From NCBI GenBank assembly GCA_963693365.1, contig CAVNZM010000013.1:1823817-1887816 (forward strand): 64,000 bases of DNA, written 5' to 3'. The notes beneath the pieces are model-generated. The model did no database searches. It was not told where the DNA came from and saw only the letters and a list, made by a program, of their open reading frames with translations. The DNA is from Amoebidium appalachense (lineage: Eukaryota > Protista > Ichthyosporea). Positions 1,675-64,000 of the stretch are shown here, in pieces; within the stretch, counting starts at the first letter, position 1; the number at the start of each line of letters is the position of its first letter. A program made the position numbers and the translations under genes.

Positions 1675-2667
1675 GATAGAAAAGTAGTGGTGGGGGTTGG
1701 GCTAGAAAAGAGAAGCCCCGAGGGGGGGGGGGGGGGGGGGAGAGGGAGGGCGCAGGGAGGAGAGGGTTTGGGGGGGGGAGGGGGAGGGGGTGGGTTAGAG
1801 GGGGGAGGATGCGGTAGGGAGGTGTGAGTGAGAGAGGCAGAGTGGTGGAGTGCAAAGGTTACGTGGAGAAAGAGCATGCAATAGAAGTGGTTGTTGTATG
1901 CTCAAGTGTGTCATTTGGATCACTTTTTTGGGATTTCGCGGGGCATTGAGAAAGAGATGCTGTTAGATTAAGTTTGCAGTAAGTTGAGGTGTAAGTAGAG
2001 ACACTAGGAATTACGAAAAAAAATTGGAAGCAGCGTCTTGCTGTACCTGAATGGCTATAGAAAAGGGCTGGCATCTGTGTAGCATGCATCAGTAAACCAT
2101 CACAAAATTGAATAGGAAAGTGCATTGGTTTTTGCACAAACCAACCGATCAGCAACAACCTCTTATCTTGTGTCAAAGACCTACTATTTTTTGTTGTGGA
2201 TGTTGGGGGAGGGGGAAGGTTAATGTGATATATCTTCATGCACCCGTTCCCCCCCCCCCCCCCCCCCCCCCCCCTCCCCTCCGGCCCTGGCCCCTCAATG
2301 CTTTGTGTTGCAGTTCTCTTTCTATTCTTCTATCCACCCCACCACTCTTTCCGTCTCTCTGTTTTCCCAAATGCCCCCCCCCCCCGCATACTCTTTATGT
2401 ATGGCTTGCATTCTGCATCGTGTTATCCGTTTGTTCTTGTGTACTTCGTACTTTTTGACGCAATCAAACCCTCCCCCCCCCCCCTCCACCCCCACCCCAC
2501 CCCACCCCTTCCCCCTTCCTCTTTCAGACCACCACCACTCCCCCACATTCAACCCTTTCCATCCCGGGTCTACCTTCAGCTCTCAGCTTTCTCTATCTCA
2601 CTCTATCTCTCTCTCTCCCCCCCCCCCCCCCCCCCCCCCCCTCCTCTCTCTCTCTCTCTCTCTCTTT

Positions 2668-2760
<93 letters not shown>

Positions 2761-3758
2761 CCCTCCCCCCCTTCCCCCCCTCTCTCTTTTTCTCTCTGTC
2801 TCTCTTTCTCCCCCCCCCCCCCTACCCCCTCCCCCCCCGGCCCCCCCCTCCCCCCCCTCCCCCTCAGTCCCTCCCCCCTCTCTCCTTTTCCCTCCCAACA
2901 CACACACACACACACATACACACACACACAGCCACCACCACCTGCTCTTCGGTCTCCCTCCCCTTCCTTTGCCCCGCTCATAACCCTCCAACCCTCACCA
3001 CTCTCTAATTCCACCTCCTTACCTTACTCTTATCAGAACTTGTACAAGGTGATGCATTCATGCAAATGCAAACCTTTAAATCTACACAACACACAAGATA
3101 TGTAGGCTCGCACAAAAACAATGAATCAAGCACATACATTCTAACACAGAGTAGGGAACATACCACATATTACACAGGCGCACACACATTCAAAACACAT
3201 ACACGATGGAAATAGGGCACACACACACACAGCTGAGATGAAGGTAGATACGCAAGGAGGTATGTTTGCACGTGTGCATGTTCACATTGGCAAACACCAC
3301 TTTAATGAAAAGAAACGAAATGGGTGATGGGGAAGGGGTGGGAGGGGGCCTTAGCATACAGCAGTTGTGTTGTCACCGTATATTAGGTAACATTACTAAT
3401 TATAAGGATATCATGCATATGGGGCACATGTGTTTCCGATTGGCCGGAGGGAGCGGCCAATAAAGTGCAATGATCCCGTCAAGAAATCGGTGGTGGCTTG
3501 GTTTACATGTTCATATAGGCTTGAACGTATTCAATTTGGGATAGATGGGAAGGGGAAAGGGGGAATCAAGGGGGGTTTTACGGGCAGGGGGAGGGCGGGG
3601 GTAGGGGGGGGGGGGGGAGGAAGGGATTGGCATAGCCATATATGGAAATTCAAAGGGAAAAAAGAAGTGGGTGGCCATGGGTGGGGGGGGGAGGGGATGT
3701 GACGCTGTGACGCTCCCAAAAGCTGAGGTTGAGGGGGGCCGGAAGGGGGGGGGGGGGG

Positions 3759-4472
3759 TTTGAATGCGGAACACAGTACGAAGTACGCATAGACGATGAG
3801 AAGCATGGTGCAGGACACATGCAAAGGCAAACATTCAAGTATGCAGCATCAGCCATGCGCACAGTATGCGTCATAAGCAGAGCCCATCCTCAGGGAGGGC
3901 CCAAGTCATCAATTGCGTCTGAGTTTCGACCCCTTAGCCCGCGTATATACGACGCTCCAACTCAGACAGCAGCATCAACTGAACTTGGGTGGGTCAACCC
4001 GTCTTGATCAAAGACGAGCAGGGTTGCTTATGCAAGCAAGGTGAGCAAAACGGTGAAGATGTGTGTGCAAACTAATGCAGTGCAGCGACAAACGCGTATG
4101 TGCTTACAGATGCACGAAACAGAGCAACCATGCCCGGTTGCATGGAAGTAAAGATGTCTCCACACAGTGGTCTGTCCTGAAAGGACACCTCTGAAAGAAG
4201 ACGGGGGGGGTTTGAATGCGGAACACAGTACGAAGTACGCATAGACGATGAGAAGCATGGTGCAGGACACATGCAAAGGCAAACATTCAAGTATGCAGCA
4301 TCAGCCATGCGCACAGTATGCGTCATAAGCAGAGCCCATCCTCAGGGAGGGCCCAAGTCATCAATTGCGTCTGAGTTTCGACCCCTTAGCCCGCGTATAT
4401 ACGACGCTCCAACTCAGACAGCAGCATCAACTGAACTTGGGTGGGTCAACCCGTCTTGATCAAAGACGAGCA

Positions 4473-4475
<3 letters not shown>
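3759..4475 (-). mobile_element. ~452-bp non-coding retroelement-like family, 1.6 head-to-tail units
   Basis: Unit starts TTTGAATGCGGAACAC at 3759 and again at 4211 (period 452); second unit is identical and stops at ...GACGAGCAGGG. Both ends abut poly-G. Homologous copies at 16403, 20059, 23833, 51156. Strand assignment is inferred from the fixed end. Confidence 0.8.
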
Positions 4476-4505
<30 letters not shown>

Positions 4506-5376: not shown

Positions 5377-6688
5377 CTACCCACACACTGAGTCTTGAAC
5401 CTCAATCTTAACCCTACCCATCTCGCGCCTTCTCTTTTTCCTTGCCGCATATTTCTCCCTCCTCCTCGCATTCAACTCATCCTTCCTCAAGTCAGACAGA
5501 TGCTTCAACCCATGCCGATTGCACAATGTCCCCGGCCCGTGCGGCCCCATTCTCCAATGTGTCTCCTCCGCACCAGAGACAGTGCACTCTGGCCACAAGC
5601 ACATGCGCAAACTACGTTCAAGTGCCAATACTGATTTCAATTTCTGTCGCGATTGTAACGGTTTACTCTCCGTAACATCTTGTTTCGGATGCGCGCTGGC
5701 GCCGAAGTCAATGTCTGACGTCGTTGCGCACATGGGTAGTGTTTTCTCTGCACAAGTTTGCTTGCGGTCGCTGCTAAAGTCGAACTCAAACGTTTCATAA
5801 GGACGTTTGTGGAACATGTTGGAGTCCATGTCGTGCGCCGTTGTGCATGGTGGCGGCAGCCTGCTTTCTGCAAGATTTTTCAGGCATCCGGAGCGGGAAT
5901 TCAAGTCAAACAACGAAAGACTCTGCGTGTTTGAAGTGTTGGGGTTCAGGTCGTACGTCGTTATACTTGGAGGTTGCTCACTGTGCATCATCAAATCCGT
6001 CCACTTTTCCGGGCCCGCGTCATGGCAAACCAAGCCTCCCGAACTCTTTTCAGTACACGTCGACGTAGGCCAAATGGAAAATGGCAGGAGAGGCAGTGAT
6101 TTCTCGGAGCATGTCGTTGGCGATGGTGCCGAAGAAGTAGGTGGGAGGACGGGGTGAAAAGCCGCTGTTTGGGCTGCAAGTGGGTCGAAGGGAAACTCTC
6201 GTTGGGAAAAATTTAAACCGCCAAACAGAAAAGGATCGTCTGGTACGTATGATTCCGGATACACATTAATATCAAGTTCTAAAGATGAATTGAAAAAAAT
6301 CTAAAATGATATCCGTGGCTGCCAGCTGATCACTTGCTTTCTCTTCGACAGGTGCAGTGTTGGAAGTTATCAAAACATTTTCCGGTGGAAAGAGAGGTGT
6401 AAGTTCAAAATCTGCCGGGAAGCCTAGCTCGAAATCCGAAAAGTTGAAATCCGGAATGGAAGTCTCCGTCGTTGTACCTGTGTGGTCCGCCGTGTCGATG
6501 ATTATGCATGGCAGTGGGTCCAACACCGTGGCTGAAGGCTCGAAATGGGGGGTCTTTTGGTCGTAATTTGTCTCACTTTCTGTCTCCCCAAATGGATGAG
6601 AACTTTCCAAAGACGTAAAGAGCTTAAAGTCATCATCTAGTTGCTTTGAAGTGGGCTCAGGGACCTCGTAGGTGTTAGGGCAGTCCAT
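5377..6688 (-). CDS. GATA-type zinc-finger transcription factor (atypical finger); one apparent frameshift
   Basis: ORF 5377-6264 contains CLWPEC...THWRMGPHGPGTLCNRHGL (GATA signature WRxGPxG...LCNxCGL) followed by a basic tail RRREKYAARKKRRR. Upstream acidic ORF from ATG 6688 (MDCPNTYEV...) joins it in frame if one base is removed from the A7 run at 6293-6299 (DFFNSSLELDINVYPE). Confidence 0.8.
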
Positions 6689-11598: not shown

Positions 11599-24706
<13,108 letters not shown>

Positions 24707-26599: not shown

Positions 26600-26998
26600 G
26601 GGCCCAACCACATCGGCAGGCTCAACTTGCAAAAGCAGAATTATTCTGCACAAAGCAGAATTATTCTGCAAAATTAGCAGAATTATTTATCTGGAGAAGC
26701 AAAATTATTCTGCAAAAGCAGAATTATTCTGCACAAAGCAGAAGCACTCTGCGTTTAGGAGAATTATTCCATAAAAAGCAGAAGAATTCTGCTTTAGACA
26801 GCAGAATAAACTTGCTCCATGGATCTCCAGGCAGAATAATTCTGTTTAGATTAATTCTGCCTTTAGCAGAATAGCCTTTGCTGAATAAATTAGCAGAATA
26901 TTTCTGCTTTTTGCCGAAAGCAGTGCTGCTTTTTTGCGAATAATTCTGCTAGCGCTCGGAGCAAGTTGGCTCAGCCGATTTGGTTCAACTTGGGCCCA
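26600..26998. mobile_element. Foldback/MITE-like element with palindromic GCAGAATTATTCTGC subrepeats
   Basis: Left end GGGCCCAA.CCACATCGGC..CAACTTGC..AGCAGAATTATTC is the inverse of the right end GAATAATTCTGCT..GCAAGTTG..GCCGATTTGG..TTGGGCCC; more than 10 internal AGCAGAAT(T)ATTCTGC motifs. Confidence 0.7.
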
Positions 26999-29249: not shown

Positions 29250-29525
29250 ATGGGGATTTCACCAGGTTTTGGGTCTTTCCTGTCCTTTGCGGCTGGTGTG
29301 CTTGCTATCGCCGCATTGGTCTCGAGTAGCTGGATAAGCTCCGCCTACCAGGGCTCAGAGTGAGTCTTTCTCCCCCCTCCCCCCCCCCCCCCCCCCCCCT
29401 CTCGCCCCCTCCCCCCCCTCCCGCCACTTCTCCCCTGGTCAGTTAGAAGAGATGGCGGGAAGTAGTTTGGAGGTGGGGGAGGGAGGGGGAGGGGGGGGGG
29501 GGGAGGGAGAGAGGGGGTGGAGAGT

Positions 29526-29572
<47 letters not shown>

Positions 29573-30594
29573 TTGTGTGTAATTGTGAGTTGGTTTTTGG
29601 GGTCAGGTGTGGGGGGGTGAAGGGGGAGGGGGGGAGAAGGGGGGGTAAAGGGCATGGTTACTCTAAAACCCTATCTGTTTTTGCTTCATGGTAATGATGT
29701 TCTCACAAATATGTGCTCACAAAGCTCTGCTGGTATAACCTGTGGGGTGGAGGTGAGAAGGAGGCGGAGGGAGGATCCTCTCCAAAAGCTTAAGCACCAC
29801 CGGTGACGTAGATATTAATGCAGGCATGTTGCTCTTGAACTTATGAACTCTCTTGCGCGCACTTGCGCCTGCACGTTGAACTGCACTGTAGACCCCTCGC
29901 GACGAGTTGTTTCTGCACGCGCACGACACACAAACACACACATACGCACTACCGACCAAATTCTTGACATACCAGGATATCTCTGGTTTCTCAGCACAAT
30001 TCTATGTTGGTTTCTCAGCGCCTTTCTATATATTGATTCGATTTGCACAATTTTTTCCCCAACAGCTATTCCTTTGGTGTGTCTCGCGCGTGCGTCAGTG
30101 TAAACGGCGAGGAGGCCTGCAACTTTTATTTCGTGTCGGTGAAATTCATCGCCGAGCAACCTTGGGGATGGCCTAGCACAGCATGGCAAACAGCCATGTT
30201 CCTCATGTTTTTCGGCCTTGCATGTTCCGTCGTCTCTTGGATCGTCGGCACCATTGCCTCATGCATGTTGTGTTTCTGCTGCGTGAGCATCCCCCTTAGC
30301 GCCATTTCCGCTGTTTTCGCCCTTGGCGCGACTGCGCTCTACACAGGAAGCATTTGCATGTTCTGTTCAGCGGCTCAGTTGCCCATGTGGAACATGTTTG
30401 CAAAGGGGGGAGATGCATCTCCTGTGTGTGGTACCACTGCGGCGAGCTACAATTTCGGTGTTTGTGACCCCCGATGGGGGTTCTATGTGGCAATTTCGGC
30501 GGCGGCGTGTTCTCTCGTTTCGTTCATTGCGTTCTTCCCTACTTTCTGTAGCTCCCCTAAGCCCAGTAGCAAGCTGGGGCACGGTTATGCCTAG
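29250..30594 (+). CDS. LHFPL (lipoma HMGIC fusion partner-like) tetraspan membrane protein, claudin superfamily; 2 exons
   Basis: Exon 1 29250-29359 (MGISPGFGSFLSFAAGVLAIAALVSSSWI..., GTGAGT donor) splices in phase 2 to exon 2 30066-30594 (SFGVSRAC...WPSTAWQ...CGTTAASYNFGVCDPRWGFYVAI). The W..FG..R.C, PS.AWQ and CG...Y..G.C...W..Y.AI motifs are typical of the LHFP family. Confidence 0.85.
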
Positions 30595-32150: not shown

Positions 32151-32816
32151 TGGTGCCCAAATATAGGAAGGATGATTTTCTGTTCACAGTAGGAACAGCC
32201 TTTGTGAGGCAATTACACCGAATCATACTAGATGTCATATAAATAACAATAAAAGTAATAAAGATTGAAAGAACTGCACAAAGAAAAGTGAATTGGCAAA
32301 CTTAAATGTCTTCAGCTGCGAATAAGAGGGATCACCCAGTGGGCTGGATTTGTGCTTCCACACTGCGCTCTCTCCCGTTGCAGATATGGCTCTGCACTGT
32401 GTGCATGGGCAGGTCACTCATTTGATTATCAAGGAAACCTAACTTCTATGCCGTCATGGTTTTTTTGTCGTTTGATTGTGGGACAAAAAAAAATCGATAA
32501 GGACTAAGTCTTGATCGACCATTTTCTGCACATGGTAACTTGACAGTATTAAAGATTTACCCCCCCTGTTTTAACATGTGTTCTGGAATATGCATGTAGT
32601 TGTGTCGTGATATTTCTATTTCTGACAGTAGATTTGACAAGCATTTCCAATCAGATTCTGCCCGAGATCGTGTGAACACACAAACATTATATTTGACTCG
32701 CAGAAAGGCAACGGTTACCGTTACCCTGTTACCCATACTATCAAACTATGCCCCCTCCCCCCCCCCCCCCCCCCCCCCCCCTCTCACCCTTCCAACTCCC
32801 CCCCCCCCTCCCCCCC

Positions 32817-33585: not shown

Positions 33586-34199
33586 CACATATAACTCACT
33601 GTGCGCGTGCGCGCGTGTGTGCGTGTGCATATCTGAAAATCTGAAAGCTTGTGCGTGTGCGTGTTATCTGAAACTTTTTTTTATTTCTTCTGCAATTTAC
33701 ATGAGGGTGACCTTTTGACCCAACAGACCCCGTCGGTGTTGACGATCTGCCAGTCTTTGGCTGAAATTTCTCCTCCAAAGAATCATTACTTGCTCTATTA
33801 ATATATATTAAACAAGTGCAGATTCTGAACGGACTTTGCACTGTCTGCATAGGCAGGTCACCCGAATGGCTAACACAAAAACCTTGTTTTGTAAGCAGTA
33901 CAGTTTTCTGGCGAATGATTGTGGGACAGGACTCGTGTGCTCGTGCCGTGAAGAACATCTTGACGGGATTTGCTCCCACCACGTGCACGATGGCATGTCA
34001 GAATTCAGACACACCCTTAAGCTAGCAGTTATCTTGTGTTTTTGTCCTTTAGTAGTTCAGTTTCTGTAACAGTATGCGCAGATTCAGTAATATTCTTTGG
34101 TCATGCGAAGCAGGGCATAAGAACTCACAGAGAGACCAACGTTTTGTATCACTTCATTAGTCAACCTCCTCCCCCCCCCCCCCCCCCCCTCCTTCTCAA

Positions 34200-34538: not shown

Positions 34539-35916
34539 GTGACACACACACACACACGCGATACATTTACACACACACGCACACACACACACACAAACAC
34601 ACGCACACGCACACACACGCACGCACACGCACGCACGCACGCACGAACACACTGGCACACCAAAAAAAAAAACGTCAGTGCCACGAAGTTGAATACGATC
34701 GTGTGCAAGCACACATTCTCCCCCTCCCACCCCACCCCCACCCCCCATCCCCACCCATCCACCTTTCCGTGACCGATTCAAAAGCCCATGGCCACGGTGG
34801 TATAGCATGCAGTATTTGACTTTTGATTTTGATTCATCATGTGCACAATTCGACACATAACTTCTTCCAATTGACACTTTCTACTTGTACCCCCCCCCCC
34901 GCACCCACCCACCCACCCACCCACCTTCTCCTCCCCCTCCCCCCCTCCCCCCTTCCCCTTCCCTCTCCTCCCCCTCTCTTCCCTTCCTTCTCTCCCCTAC
35001 CCCTAGCTACCCCTTTTCTGACCGCTTCATGCATTGTGGTATATTTGGCTTTTCATAGCCTGTACATATCGACCCTTCAAGGCTTATAAATCCCCCCCCC
35101 CCCCCCCCCCCCCCCTTTCCCCCCCTTCTCCCCTTCCCCTTCCCCCCCCTCCCCCCCTTGTCCCCTCTGTCCCCTTCGTCCCCTCTTCGCCCCCTCCCCC
35201 TCCCCCATCCCCTTCCACCCCTTTGCCCCCCTCCCCCCCCCCCTCTTCCCACCCCCCCCCCCTCCCCCCTCCCCCCCCCCCCCCCCCCCCCCCCCCCCCG
35301 CCCGCGCCCACCACCACCACCACTCCCTTTGAACCCAAACCCATGGCCACCCCACCTACCCCCTGCCTTCCCTATCGGGGTTTTAGCCCTTATCCAACAC
35401 TCACACTCTGTTATGCATGTCCCGTTCTTCAAGCAAATAGTAAATCGTACACTTGTGTACTCCACTCCCTCCACCCAATATCCCCTTCCTTTGCCCAACA
35501 ACCGTTCTTAATATCATTACTAAATATAAAAGTTTGCCTGGGGCCCGGGGTTACCTTAGCCAAGTGAAGACGTAGCCTCTGTAAGGTAGAAATGGATAGA
35601 CGCTTCAAACAAGAATCAAGAAAAGAACAGAAAAGAGGAAGGAAAGGAAGAAAGACAAAAAGAAAGAAAGAAATGAGAAAAACATTTCTTTAGCTGCATT
35701 GATAGGGGTGACCTTGGTGCCGGATTTGTAATGCCGAGCTCTGCATGGCTTTCCCTATCCATACCATTTGACCTGGCATTCGAGTTGTGCAGCAGACACT
35801 GTCGGACTCTGCACTGTGTGCATGGGCAGGTCACCTTGAAATGACTTCCACCGAAACCTTTTGCTTATGACAGCTACAGATTTCTGTTGGTTGATGGTGG
35901 GACAGAATTTCGGGAT

Positions 35917-36171
35917 GCGGGTGGGGACCCAGCCAAGCTGCAGCAGCCACCTATGCACATGCTGCTTTGTGACCACTAAAAAAAAAAACAAAAAAAACAA
36001 AAAAAAAAAAACAAAAAAAAACGGTGCTTTACACCCATCACCCGTTCAACGACTCTTGCTTATGGCTATATGTTCCCAACTAGAATGGCTTAGATGGCCC
36101 AAGTTTGGACTTATTGATGTTTACAAAAGTGTGTAGTTGGGAAAATCTAGGGAGGGTGGTTACAGCTACCT
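35917..36171 (+). repeat. ~250-bp dispersed duplicate, copy 1
   Basis: GCGGGTGGGGACCCAGCCAA...GGTTACAGCTACCT nearly identical to 39539-39783. Confidence 0.9.
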
Positions 36172-37443
36172 AACGCTGGTTGGGAGTTACCATCCACGAC
36201 ATTGCAGATGTGTCTCTGCAATGCGTGTACGTGCAGGCCACCCAAATGGCTTGCACCGAAACTTAATCCTTACGTCTATAACATTTTTCTGTTTTTTGAT
36301 TGTGGGACAGAGAAGTGCCCAGAAGGCTTTGATCGGTAAACCTTTTTCTGTGGGCCATTAATTTTATAAAGATTCAAGTGGCACGATCAGCTGTACCAAC
36401 GCCACCTAAAAACGTGTGCCACTAGAATTTATGATTGTACATGTAACATACACGTACAGCACAGCTTCCGTGAGAGCATACATAGACTAGGCGAATTGAA
36501 TTGAATACTCGCAACCTACTTGCATCGTGCAAAGACCGAGGCGTTAGCGAAGTTATTCTTTCAATCACTTACCCCCCCCCCCCCCCCCCCCCCCTACCTT
36601 CCTGCTTTGGAAAGCAAGAAAAAGTAACCCCCCCCCCCCCCCCCCCTCCCTTTCCCCCGTAGCCTCCCATCCCCAATCCCCAAATTTCTTTCCCCCCCCC
36701 CCCCCCCCTCCCCCCCTCCTCCCCCCCTCCCCCTCTCCCAACCTGAGTCCCTCCCACCAGGCTGGGCGCCCCCACATATCTGCAGTTTGAGCTTTTACCA
36801 AGACAAAATCCTTGACCTTGAGAGGAAGATAGAGGGATTTAAGCTGACGTATACATGGAGTGACCTTTGAGCCCACCAACTGGGACTTTTGCGCTGCCAA
36901 TCGTTCAACGTAGCATTTCCCATCGATAGCCTGGCTTGGGGCCATGCTTGGCCGGAAAGGCTTACAGACGCTTGCAGATTTGACTCTGCATTGTGTGCAT
37001 GGGCAGGCCACCCGAATTCGCTCTCCGAAACCTAACCCTTATGCCAAGTACCGTTTTCTATTGTTTGATTGTGGGACAAAAACATGCACGCTGTGAAGAA
37101 AATGATCAATGATTCTTCTGTATTCAACATGCTACAACAGGCTAGCCCCTAGTTTCGTCGTGGAAATACAGTCTCTGACAGTAGAATCGGCAAACATTAA
37201 TGTTCTCAGATTGCAATTGTGCGGATACCCACAAAAAGGCGACTGTTACCCATGCTCTCCATTTACATCTTACCCAAACAGCCCCCGTCCCCCTCCTCCC
37301 CCCCCCCCCCCCCCCTCCTAACACAGCAGTCTAAAAAAATGCCCACATAAGAGGTCTAAAAAAATGCCCACATACAAGTGCAGTCTAAAAAAAAAATGCC
37401 CACATACATACCAGCGCAGTCCACACACACACACAGGCAAACA

Positions 37444-38057: not shown

Positions 38058-38861
38058 TGGGGTCCCAGGGACTGGTCAGAGCCAAGTCCTAGTACTGAAC
38101 GACGGTCACTTACAGTGCAGTAGCTTCAACCTCTGTGAGGCTTGATATAAAACGAGATTGAAGTCATGAAAAAAAGTCTAATGGGGAAACTTTCAAAGAA
38201 AAAGCAGGAAAGAAAAAACGATTTGAGAAGGAAGGAAAGAAGGAAAGAACTTCGGAAAGAAAGAAAAAAGGAAAGTAAAATACAGGTGAATGTTTTCAGC
38301 TTCATAATTGGGGGTGGCCATTGGGCCCAACCATCAGTGGAGTTTGGATCTGTGCTTAAAATCATTGACCACACATGTCCTGCTGCAGACATTATGACTC
38401 TGCACTGTGTGCATGGGGCAGGTCACCCAAATGACTTGCACGGAAACTTAATGCTTATAACCGCAACAATTTTCTCCTTCGATTGTGGGACAGAACTTCG
38501 TTTCCAGACGGATTTCATTTTCGTCATGCCAGAACAAGTTTCTGTGGCTTTAGGCTCGCCAAATTCAATGAAACATTCACAAGCTCATTGCGATCGCGCA
38601 AACACACAAATGTTAGACTCACAGGAAGGAAACAGTTACCCATTCTATCAGTTTATGGCTCTCTGATCCCTCAGAGTCTGCCCTTTCCTCCCCCCCTACC
38701 CCCTCTCCACGGGAATGGCAAGCACACATGAAAGCGCCATGCACGCACACAAACACACACAAACATGCACCTGCACCCTCGCAGGCGCGTGTGGGCGCGC
38801 ACACACACACCAACAGCCACACCCACACCCACCCACCCACCCATCCACCCACCCACCCACC

Positions 38862-39538: not shown

Positions 39539-39783
39539 GCGGGTGGGGACCCAGCCAACTTGCAGCAGCCAGCTATGCACATGCTGCTTTGTGACCACTA
39601 AAACAAAAGAAAAAGAAAAAAGACAAAAGAAAACGGTGCTTTACACCCATCACCCGTTCAACGACTCTTGCTTATGGCTATATATTCCCAACGAGAATGG
39701 CTTAGATGGCCCAAGTTTGTACTTATTGATGTTTAGAAAAGTGTGTAGTTGGGAAAATCTAGGGAGGGTGGTTACAGCTACCT
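39539..39783 (+). repeat. ~250-bp dispersed duplicate, copy 2
   Basis: Near-identical to 35917-36171. Confidence 0.9.
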
Positions 39784-40188: not shown

Positions 40189-40390
40189 AGATGTAACTCA
40201 GGCTCCGCAATGTGTGCACGTGCAGGCCACCCGAATGCCCGGCGGCCAAGAGCCGCTGAGAACCTCAAAGCAAACTACTGAGGCGGTGTCTCCCTTTTCT
40301 TTTCTTTTTTTTTTTTCCCTTTTTTTTTGGCAAAAAGACAAGAAGTAGATGTATAACGTCGCACGTGCGTCAACACGTCAGTACGTGTAG

Positions 40391-42233
<1,843 letters not shown>

Positions 42234-47268: not shown

Positions 47269-48395
47269 AATGGGTTCTCTGTGATCGGTTTTCCTCCAAA
47301 TTCAGCAAAGTTTGATTTAGTAATTTTATCCTTGTCCTTCACGTGTGGGCTTCTAGAAACCCAAAAGAATCATGCGATTGGGCGTATAGTTATCCTGCAA
47401 ATCCGACATATGTATAGATCGGAGGCGCCGCAGGCCTAGATCTAGTGTGTGGCCGTGCTGGAAAACACAGTTACTGTAAGCCACACATGCACACCAGGGG
47501 CAGTGCTCCCACCGTTGCCCAAAATATGAAACGTGTAAACCAACCAAATGCAATGCCCCTGTGTTTCATGACTCGTTTATCCACACTCAATGAGAATCTT
47601 TGAATTTATTTGTTTTGTATTCGTTATTTATTTAGGTATATCTGTTATTAGGCCTAGGAAGCTGACATGGGAAGCTCTGGAACCAACCAGGGCTCACAAT
47701 TTAACGGATTTCCCCAAAGATATTTTATCCGGTTTTTTCCTTTCTTTTTTCTTTCTTTCTTTCTTTCTTTCTTTCTTTTCTTTTTTTTTTTTTTTTTGAA
47801 ATATCAATCTTTAGCATTGGGAAATTCTGTCTTCACAATACAGTGGCAGTATCTACATAACCAACGGTTAGGTTAACGGTATTTTATTCTTGTCTATTTC
47901 CAATATTAAATATTATAACAACTGAAAACTCGAAAATCAAGGTAGTATGAGCATAAATAAAATCCCCTTATCATATAAAAAAAGTCGGGGAATCTGCACC
48001 CTAATTAATGACCACGATTGGTTAAACTAAGATCAGAAATTAATACCTTACGGAATCAACTTTAACTACCGACGACTATTTTACGTTTACTGTATATCTT
48101 CGTTGTCGATTCTATTGGTACATTAATGCGACCATTATCAAAACTAAGGGGGTGTATCAATTGACACTTGAAGTTCCGGATGGAAAAATTTCTGAAATGA
48201 ACCGAAAATATGAACAAGAAGTGGATAATGAAATGAGGTGCGCGCTCACACACTCAGTCGCGCTCACAAAGCGCACACATACACAAAACGGAAGAAAAGT
48301 TCCTCATATTAAGACCTAAGCATATCATAGAAGCATGACAACGAGAAAAAAAAAAACACACAAACAACAACAAAAAAACGAGCAACCAAGCCCCC

Positions 48396-48511: not shown

Positions 48512-63769
<15,258 letters not shown>

Positions 63770-64000
63770 CTGTTCATGTTGCACGTGTCAGCAAAACAAA
63801 GTTGTTATCAAAGCTCGTTTTTCAACCGTGGTTGGTTATCTTAGTTTAAAGCAACCACCACTACTCCCATTTTTAGCCACTGGGCGGTGAGCCACACTGG
63901 TGACGTGATTCTATGCACAATTTCCATAACGCCGTGTAGCCGTCGAGCTGAAAAGGGCGCGAATGAAACTGGCTCTGTCGTATGTCGACATCGGCAATGT

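What the first reader, a model, noticed from the sequence alone, without database searches (positions are those of the whole stretch)
3759..4475. Non-coding ~450-nt element inserted as more-than-unit-length concatemers with one fixed, poly(C)-flanked end: candidate circular-RNA (retrozyme-like) retroelement family
Seen: at least five clear copies (3759-4475, 16403-16540, 20059-20357, 23833-24290, 51156-51711) plus older relics. All share one end (...GCATTCAAA, next to a C-rich or pyrimidine run) while the other end is variable, and three copies run past one full unit into a second (1.6, 1.3 and 1.02 units). Within an insertion the two partial units share private variants (both units at 51156 carry the same ~15-nt deletion; both at 3759 are identical). 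No conserved ORF; many hairpins (CCCAAGT/ACTTGGG enclosing GTCTGAGTT/AACTCAGAC, CGTCTT/AAGACG, TTGCTT/AAGCAA, GCAACC/GGTTGC, GTCCT/AGGAC). Known: non-LTR retrozymes and Penelope-like elements give partial head-to-tail tandems by reverse transcription of circular or multimeric RNA. Inference: this is a non-autonomous element copied by target-primed, rolling-circle reverse transcription; I could not fold a canonical hammerhead, HDV or twister motif, so any self-processing motif could be of an undescribed type.
Basis: partly seen in the sequence, partly recalled or inferred. Interest (0 to 1): 0.8.

Follow-up and report, generated by a model that had tools for sequence, protein, structure and literature searches.

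The report
Poly(C)-targeting Penelope-like jumping RNA
A 452-base non-coding repeat sits in runs of C/G as cut-short or more-than-one-unit copies that all share one end; it is likely pasted in from a folded RNA by a borrowed Penelope-type reverse transcriptase, a kind of element already known from green algae, and nothing here shows that the RNA is circular or cuts itself.

Summary
Five copies of a 452-nt unit and three relics of a sister family share one fixed end (10 motif matches, 0 expected) and a variable far end. All eight insertions lie in G/C-rich runs on both sides. Three run past one unit (1.59, 1.30, 1.02), and the two long ones share rare variants within the insertion. Contigs of four public runs show a very abundant family with the same short head-to-tail joint. 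No Rfam family or canonical or minimal hammerhead was found, and no reverse transcriptase in the window. This anatomy ((C)n target, 5' truncation, partial tandems, no hammerhead) matches published non-autonomous Chlamys-type Penelope-like elements (MRC1, Chlamys-N4). Best reading: target-primed reverse transcription from a G-run primer on the minus-strand RNA, with a second pass through the C8 linker. A circular template is possible but not shown, and the partner enzyme was not found. Worth following up: a fixed-spacer terminal signal shared by two families, and helices kept between them by apparently compensatory changes (from unlinked contig ends). New member of a known kind; moderate interest.

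The parts
3759..4475 (-). Copy c1, 1.59 units (3759-4210 full unit, 4211-4475 identical partial unit); strand given is the presumed RNA strand; lowest divergence between its own units
3760..3786 (-). Fixed-end signal: 4-bp hairpin, 9-nt spacer of variable sequence, 7-nt conserved word next to the C-run; shared by families A and B
   Evidence: 10 matches vs 0 expected, spacer 9 nt in all 10
3745..3758 (+). G14 run at the fixed end (inferred primer strand of the target)
4203..4210 (-). C8 linker between units (G8 on +); a short linker of this kind is seen at the head-to-tail joint in all four runs laid
   Evidence: (tables 5, 5c)
4473..4503 (+). G31 run at the variable end; its first three G also fit unit positions 263-265 (microhomology)
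3863..4041 (-). Internal region with blocks shared by families A and B (3863-3910, 3997-4041) and the long P1/P2 hairpin (3900-3989)
   Evidence: table 7, table 7
16402..16540 (+). Copy c2, 140 nt, about 85% identical, in a dynamitin intron
20051..20356 (+). Copy c3, unit positions 1-277 interrupted by a G/C run at position 140, in a dynamitin intron
23833..24290 (+). Copy c4, 1.02 units, 96% identical, in a dynamitin intron
51156..51711 (-). Copy c5, 1.30 units (51156-51591 and 51592-51711) with shared deletions; candidate 13-nt purine-rich target-site duplication at 51140-51152 and 51710-51722 (low complexity, so weak)
56305..56446 (-). Family B relic, 142 nt, within the EGF-repeat gene region
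23595..23643 (+). Family B-like relic, 49 nt, in a dynamitin intron
2385..2468 (+). Family B relic, 84 nt; its sequence matches loose ends of public contigs at 3863

Best explanation
This is a highly repeated, non-coding 452-nt element that lies in C/G runs with one fixed and one variable end, and it is likely a non-autonomous passenger of a Penelope-type (Chlamys-like) retrotransposon, likely copied by target-primed reverse transcription. Steps: (1, inferred) the minus strand is transcribed, plausibly by read-through, since the four insertions in the dynamitin gene all lie in sense; (2, inferred) the partner protein binds the terminal hairpin-spacer-word signal and its endonuclease nicks the G strand of a genomic C/G run; (3, inferred) the G-run 3' end anneals to the C-run that follows the unit in the RNA and is extended from the fixed end; (4, pattern shown, cause inferred) synthesis often stops early and joins the far side of the target at GGG spots of the unit; (5, shown that one template sequence gave both units; route inferred) when the enzyme reaches the unit's far end it goes on through the C8 linker into the same sequence again, most simply by re-annealing the new G-rich cDNA end to the C-run of the same linear RNA or by reading a multimeric transcript. 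No covalent circle and no ribozyme are needed.
For: Fixed end plus graded far end in 8 of 8 insertions (49 to 714 nt). Summed contig depth in two DNA runs falls away from the fixed end (X1 about 1.6-2.3 million at 3789-3908 and 0.5-0.9 million at 4149-4193; X4 0.42-0.83 to 0.10-0.15 million; not a copy number, and family B adds to two blocks). G-rich flanks on both sides in 8 of 8. Four of the five family-A far ends fall at GGG spots (positions 136, 140, 265 and the G8 region plus 7 nt), which cover about 9% of the unit; c3 (277) does not. Both units of c1 share 3 of 3 c1-private sites, one of which (3792 G) is at most 6% of depth in X1. The 4202-to-3759 joint is in 4 of 4 runs (1, 2, 15 and 11 contigs in table 5) with a short T/A plus G4-7 linker, unlike the long target runs. 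Published Chlamys elements target (C)n, are 5'-truncated, form partial tandems and mostly lack hammerheads; their non-autonomous partners give multicopy head-to-tail insertions; new Chlamys-9/N4 insertions had a median of 128 bp and were all intronic. Minus strand as RNA: the terminal 147 nt of c1 fold at z -4.77 on minus and -1.48 on plus; three G-U pairs read by eye from family B contig ends fit the minus strand only.
Against: No autonomous partner was found: no RT or GIY-YIG Pfam match in 165 window frames scanned (15; 150, mostly from a list of 207 low-complexity-filtered frames), no host genome is held, and no sequence link to published Chlamys 3' ends (exact-word search only). No inverted copy and no 30-40-nt tail, both common in Penelope-like insertions, among 8 insertions. 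The strong terminal fold is confined to c1 (other copies z -0.84, -2.01, +0.25, -0.01; relic 56303 folds on both strands, -2.37 and -3.04). Among the window copies helix changes are uninformative: 7 mismatches, 5 G-U, 4 A-C, 2 double changes. All 13 of 49 published Chlamys-sheet families with a (C)n target are from Chlamydomonas or Edaphochlamys, whereas this host encodes dynamitin and is probably not a green alga (loss of dynactin in green plants is recalled, not tested). Sense orientation in introns may only reflect target supply (46 C-runs vs 13 G-runs in the dynamitin gene).
Confidence: 0.5

Rival explanations
1. Same Penelope-type, G-run-primed insertion, but the template is a covalently closed 452-nt RNA circle released by an undescribed self-processing motif or by host enzymes.
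For: Defined monomer with a conserved short linker in 4 of 4 runs; within-insertion sharing of rare variants; size near that of animal retrozymes (150-450 bp); circular templates were proposed for Penelope tandems. Families A and B keep a long hairpin by what look like compensatory changes: an 8-pair helix with mostly different letters, an A-U to U-G change in P1, and a GACCC/GGGUC to GACCU/AGGUC change in a crossing pairing (read by eye).
Against: No Rfam ribozyme; no canonical or minimal hammerhead on either strand of 3 of 3 full units, any order on the circle; a loose HDV-like descriptor also hits 15 of 30 shuffles; circular fold only z -2.5 with 64% paired; the joint is present in DNA runs; longest insertion seen is 1.59 units, not the long arrays of retrozymes; the family B pairings come from separate, unlinked contig ends.
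Confidence: 0.27
2. A SINE-like passenger of a microsatellite-targeting LINE (APE or RLE endonuclease) that has a C-run instead of an A-tail; tandems arise by template jumps.
For: Fixed 3' end with a stem-loop shared by two families is typical of SINE-LINE pairs (established knowledge). A- and B-box-like words lie on the minus strand 24 nt apart with 3 mismatches in total; 18 of 400 shuffles do as well.
Against: The boxes lie mid-unit, not at the 5' end, are post hoc and weak; no tRNA-like fold; regular full-unit head-to-tail joints with a fixed linker are a Penelope-like trait.
Confidence: 0.1
3. A non-autonomous rolling-circle DNA transposon (Helitron, Helentron or Replitron type) whose fixed end is the origin and whose termination is sloppy.
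For: Orientation-specific insertion, terminal hairpin and one sharp end occur in HUH transposons; Replitron-1 inserts after RG with a fuzzy far end.
Against: 5 of 8 insertions are shorter than one unit, whereas the described fuzzy ends overshoot into parental flank; no terminal direct repeats; no Helitron TC...CTRR ends or A/T target (recalled definition); G-U-type changes between families A and B favour selection on one RNA strand.
Confidence: 0.08
4. A TRIM or solo-LTR family: c1 read as LTR (1-262) + 190-nt internal part + LTR, with the purine-rich G8 tract as polypurine tract.
For: c1 alone starts near TG and ends in CA, and a purine-rich tract precedes the second repeat.
Against: The 'LTR' is 262, 136 or 7 nt in the three long copies, and single copies end at 140 and 277; no primer-binding-site-like sequence after position 262 by eye; no 4-6-nt target-site duplications in 8 insertions.
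Confidence: 0.03
5. Local duplication after insertion, or assembly artefact at poly-G.
For: The window is 43% low-complexity and identical repeats can be mis-assembled.
Against: The same joint is assembled in four runs of three samples; c5 units differ at 3 sites yet share two deletions; three separate loci cross the same junction.
Confidence: 0.02

Closest known systems
Non-autonomous Chlamys Penelope-like elements of Chlamydomonas reinhardtii (MRC1, Chlamys-N4_cRei; PMC8557442, PMC9977147)
   Same: (C)n target, intronic, 5' truncation to about 130 bp, partial and head-to-tail tandems, no canonical hammerhead, target duplications hidden by the repeat target, once mistaken for an LTR element.
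   Different: Host is a dynactin-encoding eukaryote of unknown lineage; no sequence link and no autonomous partner shown; two families share a fixed-spacer terminal signal and internal helices; no tail or inverted copy seen.
Animal non-LTR retrozymes (PMC7229834; bioRxiv 10.64898/2026.07.22.740005)
   Same: Non-coding unit of a few hundred nt, head-to-tail copies, likely Penelope-mobilised.
   Different: No type I hammerhead (their defining feature); no dimers or long arrays among 8 insertions; circular RNA not shown; C-run target.
Endonuclease-less Penelope-like elements Athena and Coprina (as described in PMC8557442)
   Same: A C-rich stretch at the RNA 3' end that would pair with a G-rich DNA primer.
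   Different: Those attach to telomeres and carry hammerheads; this element is dispersed in internal C/G runs.
Replitrons and Helitrons (PMC10288648)
   Same: One sharp end, terminal hairpin, orientation-specific insertion.
   Different: Heavy internal truncation, no terminal direct repeats, no Helitron ends or target.

Membership tests
Non-autonomous Chlamys/Naiad-type Penelope-like element | One fixed (3') end with frequent 5' truncation | tested here: met
   8 of 8 insertions; depth gradient; 3' assignment is inferred
Non-autonomous Chlamys/Naiad-type Penelope-like element | Partial or head-to-tail tandems (pseudo-LTR) | tested here: met
   3 of 8 insertions cross the joint; joint in 4 of 4 runs
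Non-autonomous Chlamys/Naiad-type Penelope-like element | Microsatellite target, (C)n | tested here: met
   G-rich on both flanks in 8 of 8 vs 4.9% of sites; empty sites not seen
Non-autonomous Chlamys/Naiad-type Penelope-like element | No canonical hammerhead, no conserved ORF | tested here: met
   unit lengths 452, 451, 436 break frame, longest ATG frames 62-105 aa, no Pfam match in the 14 element frames above a curated cut-off
Non-autonomous Chlamys/Naiad-type Penelope-like element | 3' end shared with an autonomous element encoding N-terminal GIY-YIG and Penelope RT | not testable with these tools
   no host genome; none in window; collection scans gave only chance hits
Non-autonomous Chlamys/Naiad-type Penelope-like element | Optional 30-40-nt tail or inverted 5'-truncated copy | tested here: inconclusive
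   none among 8 insertions; the feature is optional and the sample small
Non-LTR retrozyme | Type I hammerhead in each unit | tested here: not met
   a CUGANGA word with GAAA within 50 nt is present on minus but also in 112 of 2000 shuffles
Non-LTR retrozyme | Self-cleavage and monomeric circular RNA | not testable with these tools
   only contigs were available; joint is also in DNA runs
TRIM / LTR element | Two fixed TG...CA ends, primer-binding site, 4-6-nt target duplication | tested here: not met
   far end varies; no such duplications
tRNA-derived SINE | 5' tRNA-like head with A and B boxes | tested here: inconclusive
   mid-unit box-like pair, 18 of 400 shuffles as good; no tRNA fold
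Helitron / Replitron | TC...CTRR ends in an AT target, or short terminal direct repeats | tested here: not met
   Helitron end words recalled

The most novel reading that the evidence does not exclude
The unit is a hammerhead-less circular RNA replicon-like passenger of a telomerase-related reverse transcriptase: it is released by an undescribed self-processing fold (the P1/P2 hairpin with a crossing GACCC/GGGUC pairing kept between two families) and presents a hairpin-spacer-C-run template that captures G-run primers much as telomerase RNA does, in a eukaryotic lineage where (C)n-targeting Penelope-like elements have not been described.
Probability: 0.13. Interest if true: 0.8.

Novelty: new member of a known kind. 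Interest (0 to 1): 0.42.

Why it matters
How Penelope-like elements make partial tandems (circle, multimer or template jump) is stated as open in PMC8557442. A 452-nt, very abundant, apparently young passenger with a sharply defined end signal and a defined monomer would be a compact substrate to settle it, once its partner enzyme is found. It would also extend (C)n targeting beyond the Chlamydomonas group, and such insertions may feed the poly(C) tracts of this genome's introns. If the conserved fold proved to self-cleave, it would be a new ribozyme class; the evidence here does not show that.

Tried and rejected
Rfam: 0 matches at gathering score in the window; 1 low-complexity match at E 0.86 for 3740-4500. 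Hammerhead descriptors, full and minimal, both strands, circular order: 0 hits in 3 of 3 full units; crude hairpin and pistol patterns 0, a crude twister pattern gave one 1-mismatch hit per minus strand with no control and is not counted. HDV-like descriptor: 2-5 hits on minus, but 15 of 30 shuffles also hit, so no evidence. Relatives elsewhere: viral contigs 3 and 0 hits, metagenome 6, prokaryote genomes 2; all 11 loci are chance matches without similarity to the unit. No RNA holder listed on record; X9 and X17 are only guessed to be RNA. The second laying did not recover the middle of family B; X19 gave 0 contigs and X10 one. One search had copy c4 on the wrong strand and is discarded (redone: 1 of 30 predicted pairs with a double change). 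One search used a 10-nt spacer by mistake (0 matches; redone). Exact-word searches of the Chlamys/Naiad supplement found no family match (line breaks can hide words). Pol III boxes and hammerhead half-core are near chance (p about 0.045 and 0.056). Earlier notes of this scan by place and by sequence: none.

Full report
Setting. The window is eukaryotic, intron-rich DNA: 43% low-complexity, with 161 C or G runs of 12 or more against 27 A or T runs, a dynamitin gene, an EGF-repeat gene and an LHFPL-like gene. No whole genome is held.

The observation. The unit is 452 nt (3759-4210). Family A has five insertions: c1 3759-4475 (1.59 units, 0 differences between its units over 265 nt), c5 51156-51711 (1.30 units), c4 23833-24290 (1.02 units), c3 20051-20356 (positions 1-277 with a G-run at 140) and c2 16402-16540 (140 nt). 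Three relics (56305-56446, 23595-23643, 2385-2468) share the end but not the following sequence; two of them match loose ends of public contigs and form a second family, B. The end motif TTGAATG-N9-GTACGAAGTAC has 10 matches at up to 2 mismatches and none in 100 shuffles; the spacer is 9 nt in all 10 although its letters vary, which marks it as a recognition signal (inference). In 8 of 8 insertions both 25-nt flanks are at least 56% G on the same strand; 4.9% of window sites meet that.

One template for both units. c1 carries 3 sites at which it differs from both c4 and c5; both of its units have all 3, and one allele makes up at most 6% of depth in run X1. Both units of c5 carry a 15-nt deletion, a 1-nt deletion and one substitution absent from c1 and c4, and differ from each other at 3 sites. 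The junction is the same in c1, c4 and c5 and in contigs of 4 of 4 runs laid (table 5: 1, 2, 15 and 11 contigs; linkers of T or A plus 4-7 G in the 12 rows of table 5c shown, 58 not shown). The linker is short while targets are long, so the tandems are not chance insertions beside one another: a defined monomer was read past its own start. This does not tell a circle from a linear RNA with a jump or from a multimer, and the joint is in DNA runs too.

Abundance and polarity. 14,356 contigs of X1 and 9,367 of X4 lie on the monomer, with summed depth up to 2.3 million against 16-75 for single long contigs of X1. The tool warns that this is no copy number; with 8 insertions in 64 kb, thousands of copies are likely. 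Depth falls from the fixed end towards the far end in both DNA runs, as expected from truncation, though family B adds to two blocks and edges lose cover. Twenty listed runs from seven studies and five coded organism labels hold more than half of the words.

Which strand is RNA. The terminal 147 nt of c1 fold at z -4.77 on the minus strand and -1.48 on plus, but the other four family-A ends give -0.84, -2.01, +0.25 and -0.01, and the whole unit -1.91 versus -0.66. Within the window, changes in named helices are uninformative. Family B gives better, though unlinked, evidence. Its contig ends beyond 3910 and before 3997 are colinear with family A, differ in most letters, yet still pair: eight consecutive pairs in the P2 position (ACAGUAUC with GGUACUGU, one G-U), CCCAUGU with ACGUGGG in P1 where A has CCCAAGU with ACUUGGG, and GACCU with AGGUC in X9 where A and X4 have GACCC with GGGUC (read by eye). 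The G-U pairs work on the minus strand only. The halves come from different contigs and are consensus strings of 0.6-1.0 agreement, so this is a lead, not a test. With minus as RNA, the fixed end is the 3' end and is followed by a C-run.

Ribozyme search. Rfam gave nothing. Full and minimal hammerhead descriptors found nothing on either strand of 3 of 3 full units. A CUGAGGA word and a GAAAC word are both kept in A and B, 30 nt apart in the wrong order; this resembles the 'half core' noted for some Naiads but arises in 112 of 2000 shuffles, and CUGAGGA sits in a local hairpin. An HDV-like pattern was no better than shuffles. Box A/B-like words lie mid-unit on the minus strand (18 of 400 shuffles as good).

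Mechanism. A G-run 3' end pairing with the RNA's C-run and extended from the fixed end explains the target, the orientation and the polarity; early stops at GGG spots (4 of 5 family-A far ends; about 9% of the unit) explain the far end and resemble the microhomology joints reported for a Penelope insertion. c5 has a candidate 13-nt duplication in a purine-rich target; elsewhere a duplication would be hidden in the run. Passage through the C8 linker gives the tandems. The nick, the priming, the enzyme and the RNA are all inferred.

Comparison. PMC8557442 (main text parts 1-6 of 10 and passages; supplement parts 1, 2 and 31 of 59 and two word searches) describes Chlamys elements with (C)n and (CA)n targets, 5' truncation, partial tandems and mostly no hammerhead, and non-autonomous partners such as MRC1 with multicopy head-to-tail insertions. 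PMC9977147 (passages and section 7) reports new Chlamys-9/N4 insertions of median 128 bp, all intronic, at (C)n. bioRxiv 10.1101/2022.06.16.496473 (one passage) confirms the reclassification of MRC1. This element works like those; membership cannot be closed without the partner. It fails the retrozyme test (no hammerhead; PMC7229834 passages; bioRxiv 10.64898/2026.07.22.740005 part 1 of 5; PMC4209133 passages, which proposes circles as templates for Penelope tandems). Replitrons and Helitrons fit poorly (PMC10288648 passages). PMC3846280 was seen as passages.

Novelty. No description of this family was found in nine paper searches (listings only), but these search words, not sequence; the host's own repeat library and preprint supplements could not be seen and may already hold it. 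All 13 of 49 families on the Chlamys sheet with a (C)n target are from Chlamydomonas or Edaphochlamys, so a (C)n-targeting element in this host would be an extension. Earlier notes of this scan on similar partial-tandem elements in other genomes reach like readings; they were not checked and are not evidence.

Verdict. Real, abundant, and best filed as a new non-autonomous Penelope-type family of a known kind (0.77 for a Penelope-type enzyme in total; 0.50 linear or multimeric template, 0.27 circle). Interest 0.42. The bold reading, a circle released by a new self-processing fold, has about 0.13.

Noticed in passing
window 32373-32488, 33815-33930, 35788-35912, 36202-36311, 36972-37082, 38378-38495, 40190-40237 (+): A second, clustered repeat: seven same-strand copies of about 115 nt spaced 0.4-2 kb apart, 70-79% alike, with a 6-bp hairpin whose loop length varies, conserved internal words and a common end in GTGGGACA. 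No credible Rfam match; consensus fold has 2 of 22 pairs with a double change. Could be an array of small non-coding RNA genes or repeated exons.
   Followed up: partly
window 13098-24703 (+): Dynamitin (dynactin p50) gene in at least 13 exons, matching P0002; four of the eight insertions lie in its introns; introns carry 46 C-runs against 13 G-runs of 10 or more.
   Followed up: partly
window 52750-63780 (-): Gene with many calcium-binding EGF repeats; one 358-nt exon block is duplicated at 98% (58199-58556 and 62855-63212).
   Followed up: no
window 29250-30591 (+): Two-exon LHFPL/TMEM211-like membrane protein gene (PF10242), matching P0001 only.
   Followed up: no
window 40390-42027: Degenerate tandem repeat with periods of roughly 290 nt and shorter sub-repeats; shorter tandem repeats at 52103-52658 and 26628-26873.
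   Followed up: no
window 35917-36171 and 39539-39783: About 250-nt duplication at 92-97% identity inside the cluster of 115-nt repeats.
   Followed up: no
table 7, run X17, place 4179: A contig continues from the unit into a G-run and a third end variant with a 5-nt instead of 9-nt spacer before the hairpin: a further family may use the same signal.
   Followed up: no
window 20190-20215: The G/C run inside copy c3 sits at unit position 140, the same spot where c2 and the second unit of c5 end and where a 3899-to-3759 joint occurs in X1: either run expansion or internal priming at this C-rich spot.
   Followed up: partly
window 5377-6300 (-): Frame with a GATA-type zinc-finger-like motif (recognised by eye; no Pfam match at 0.001).
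   Followed up: no
window 48044-48316 (+): Weak Pfam match to poxvirus-type RNA helicase NPH-II (E 0.00048, below the curated cut-off); probably chance.
   Followed up: no
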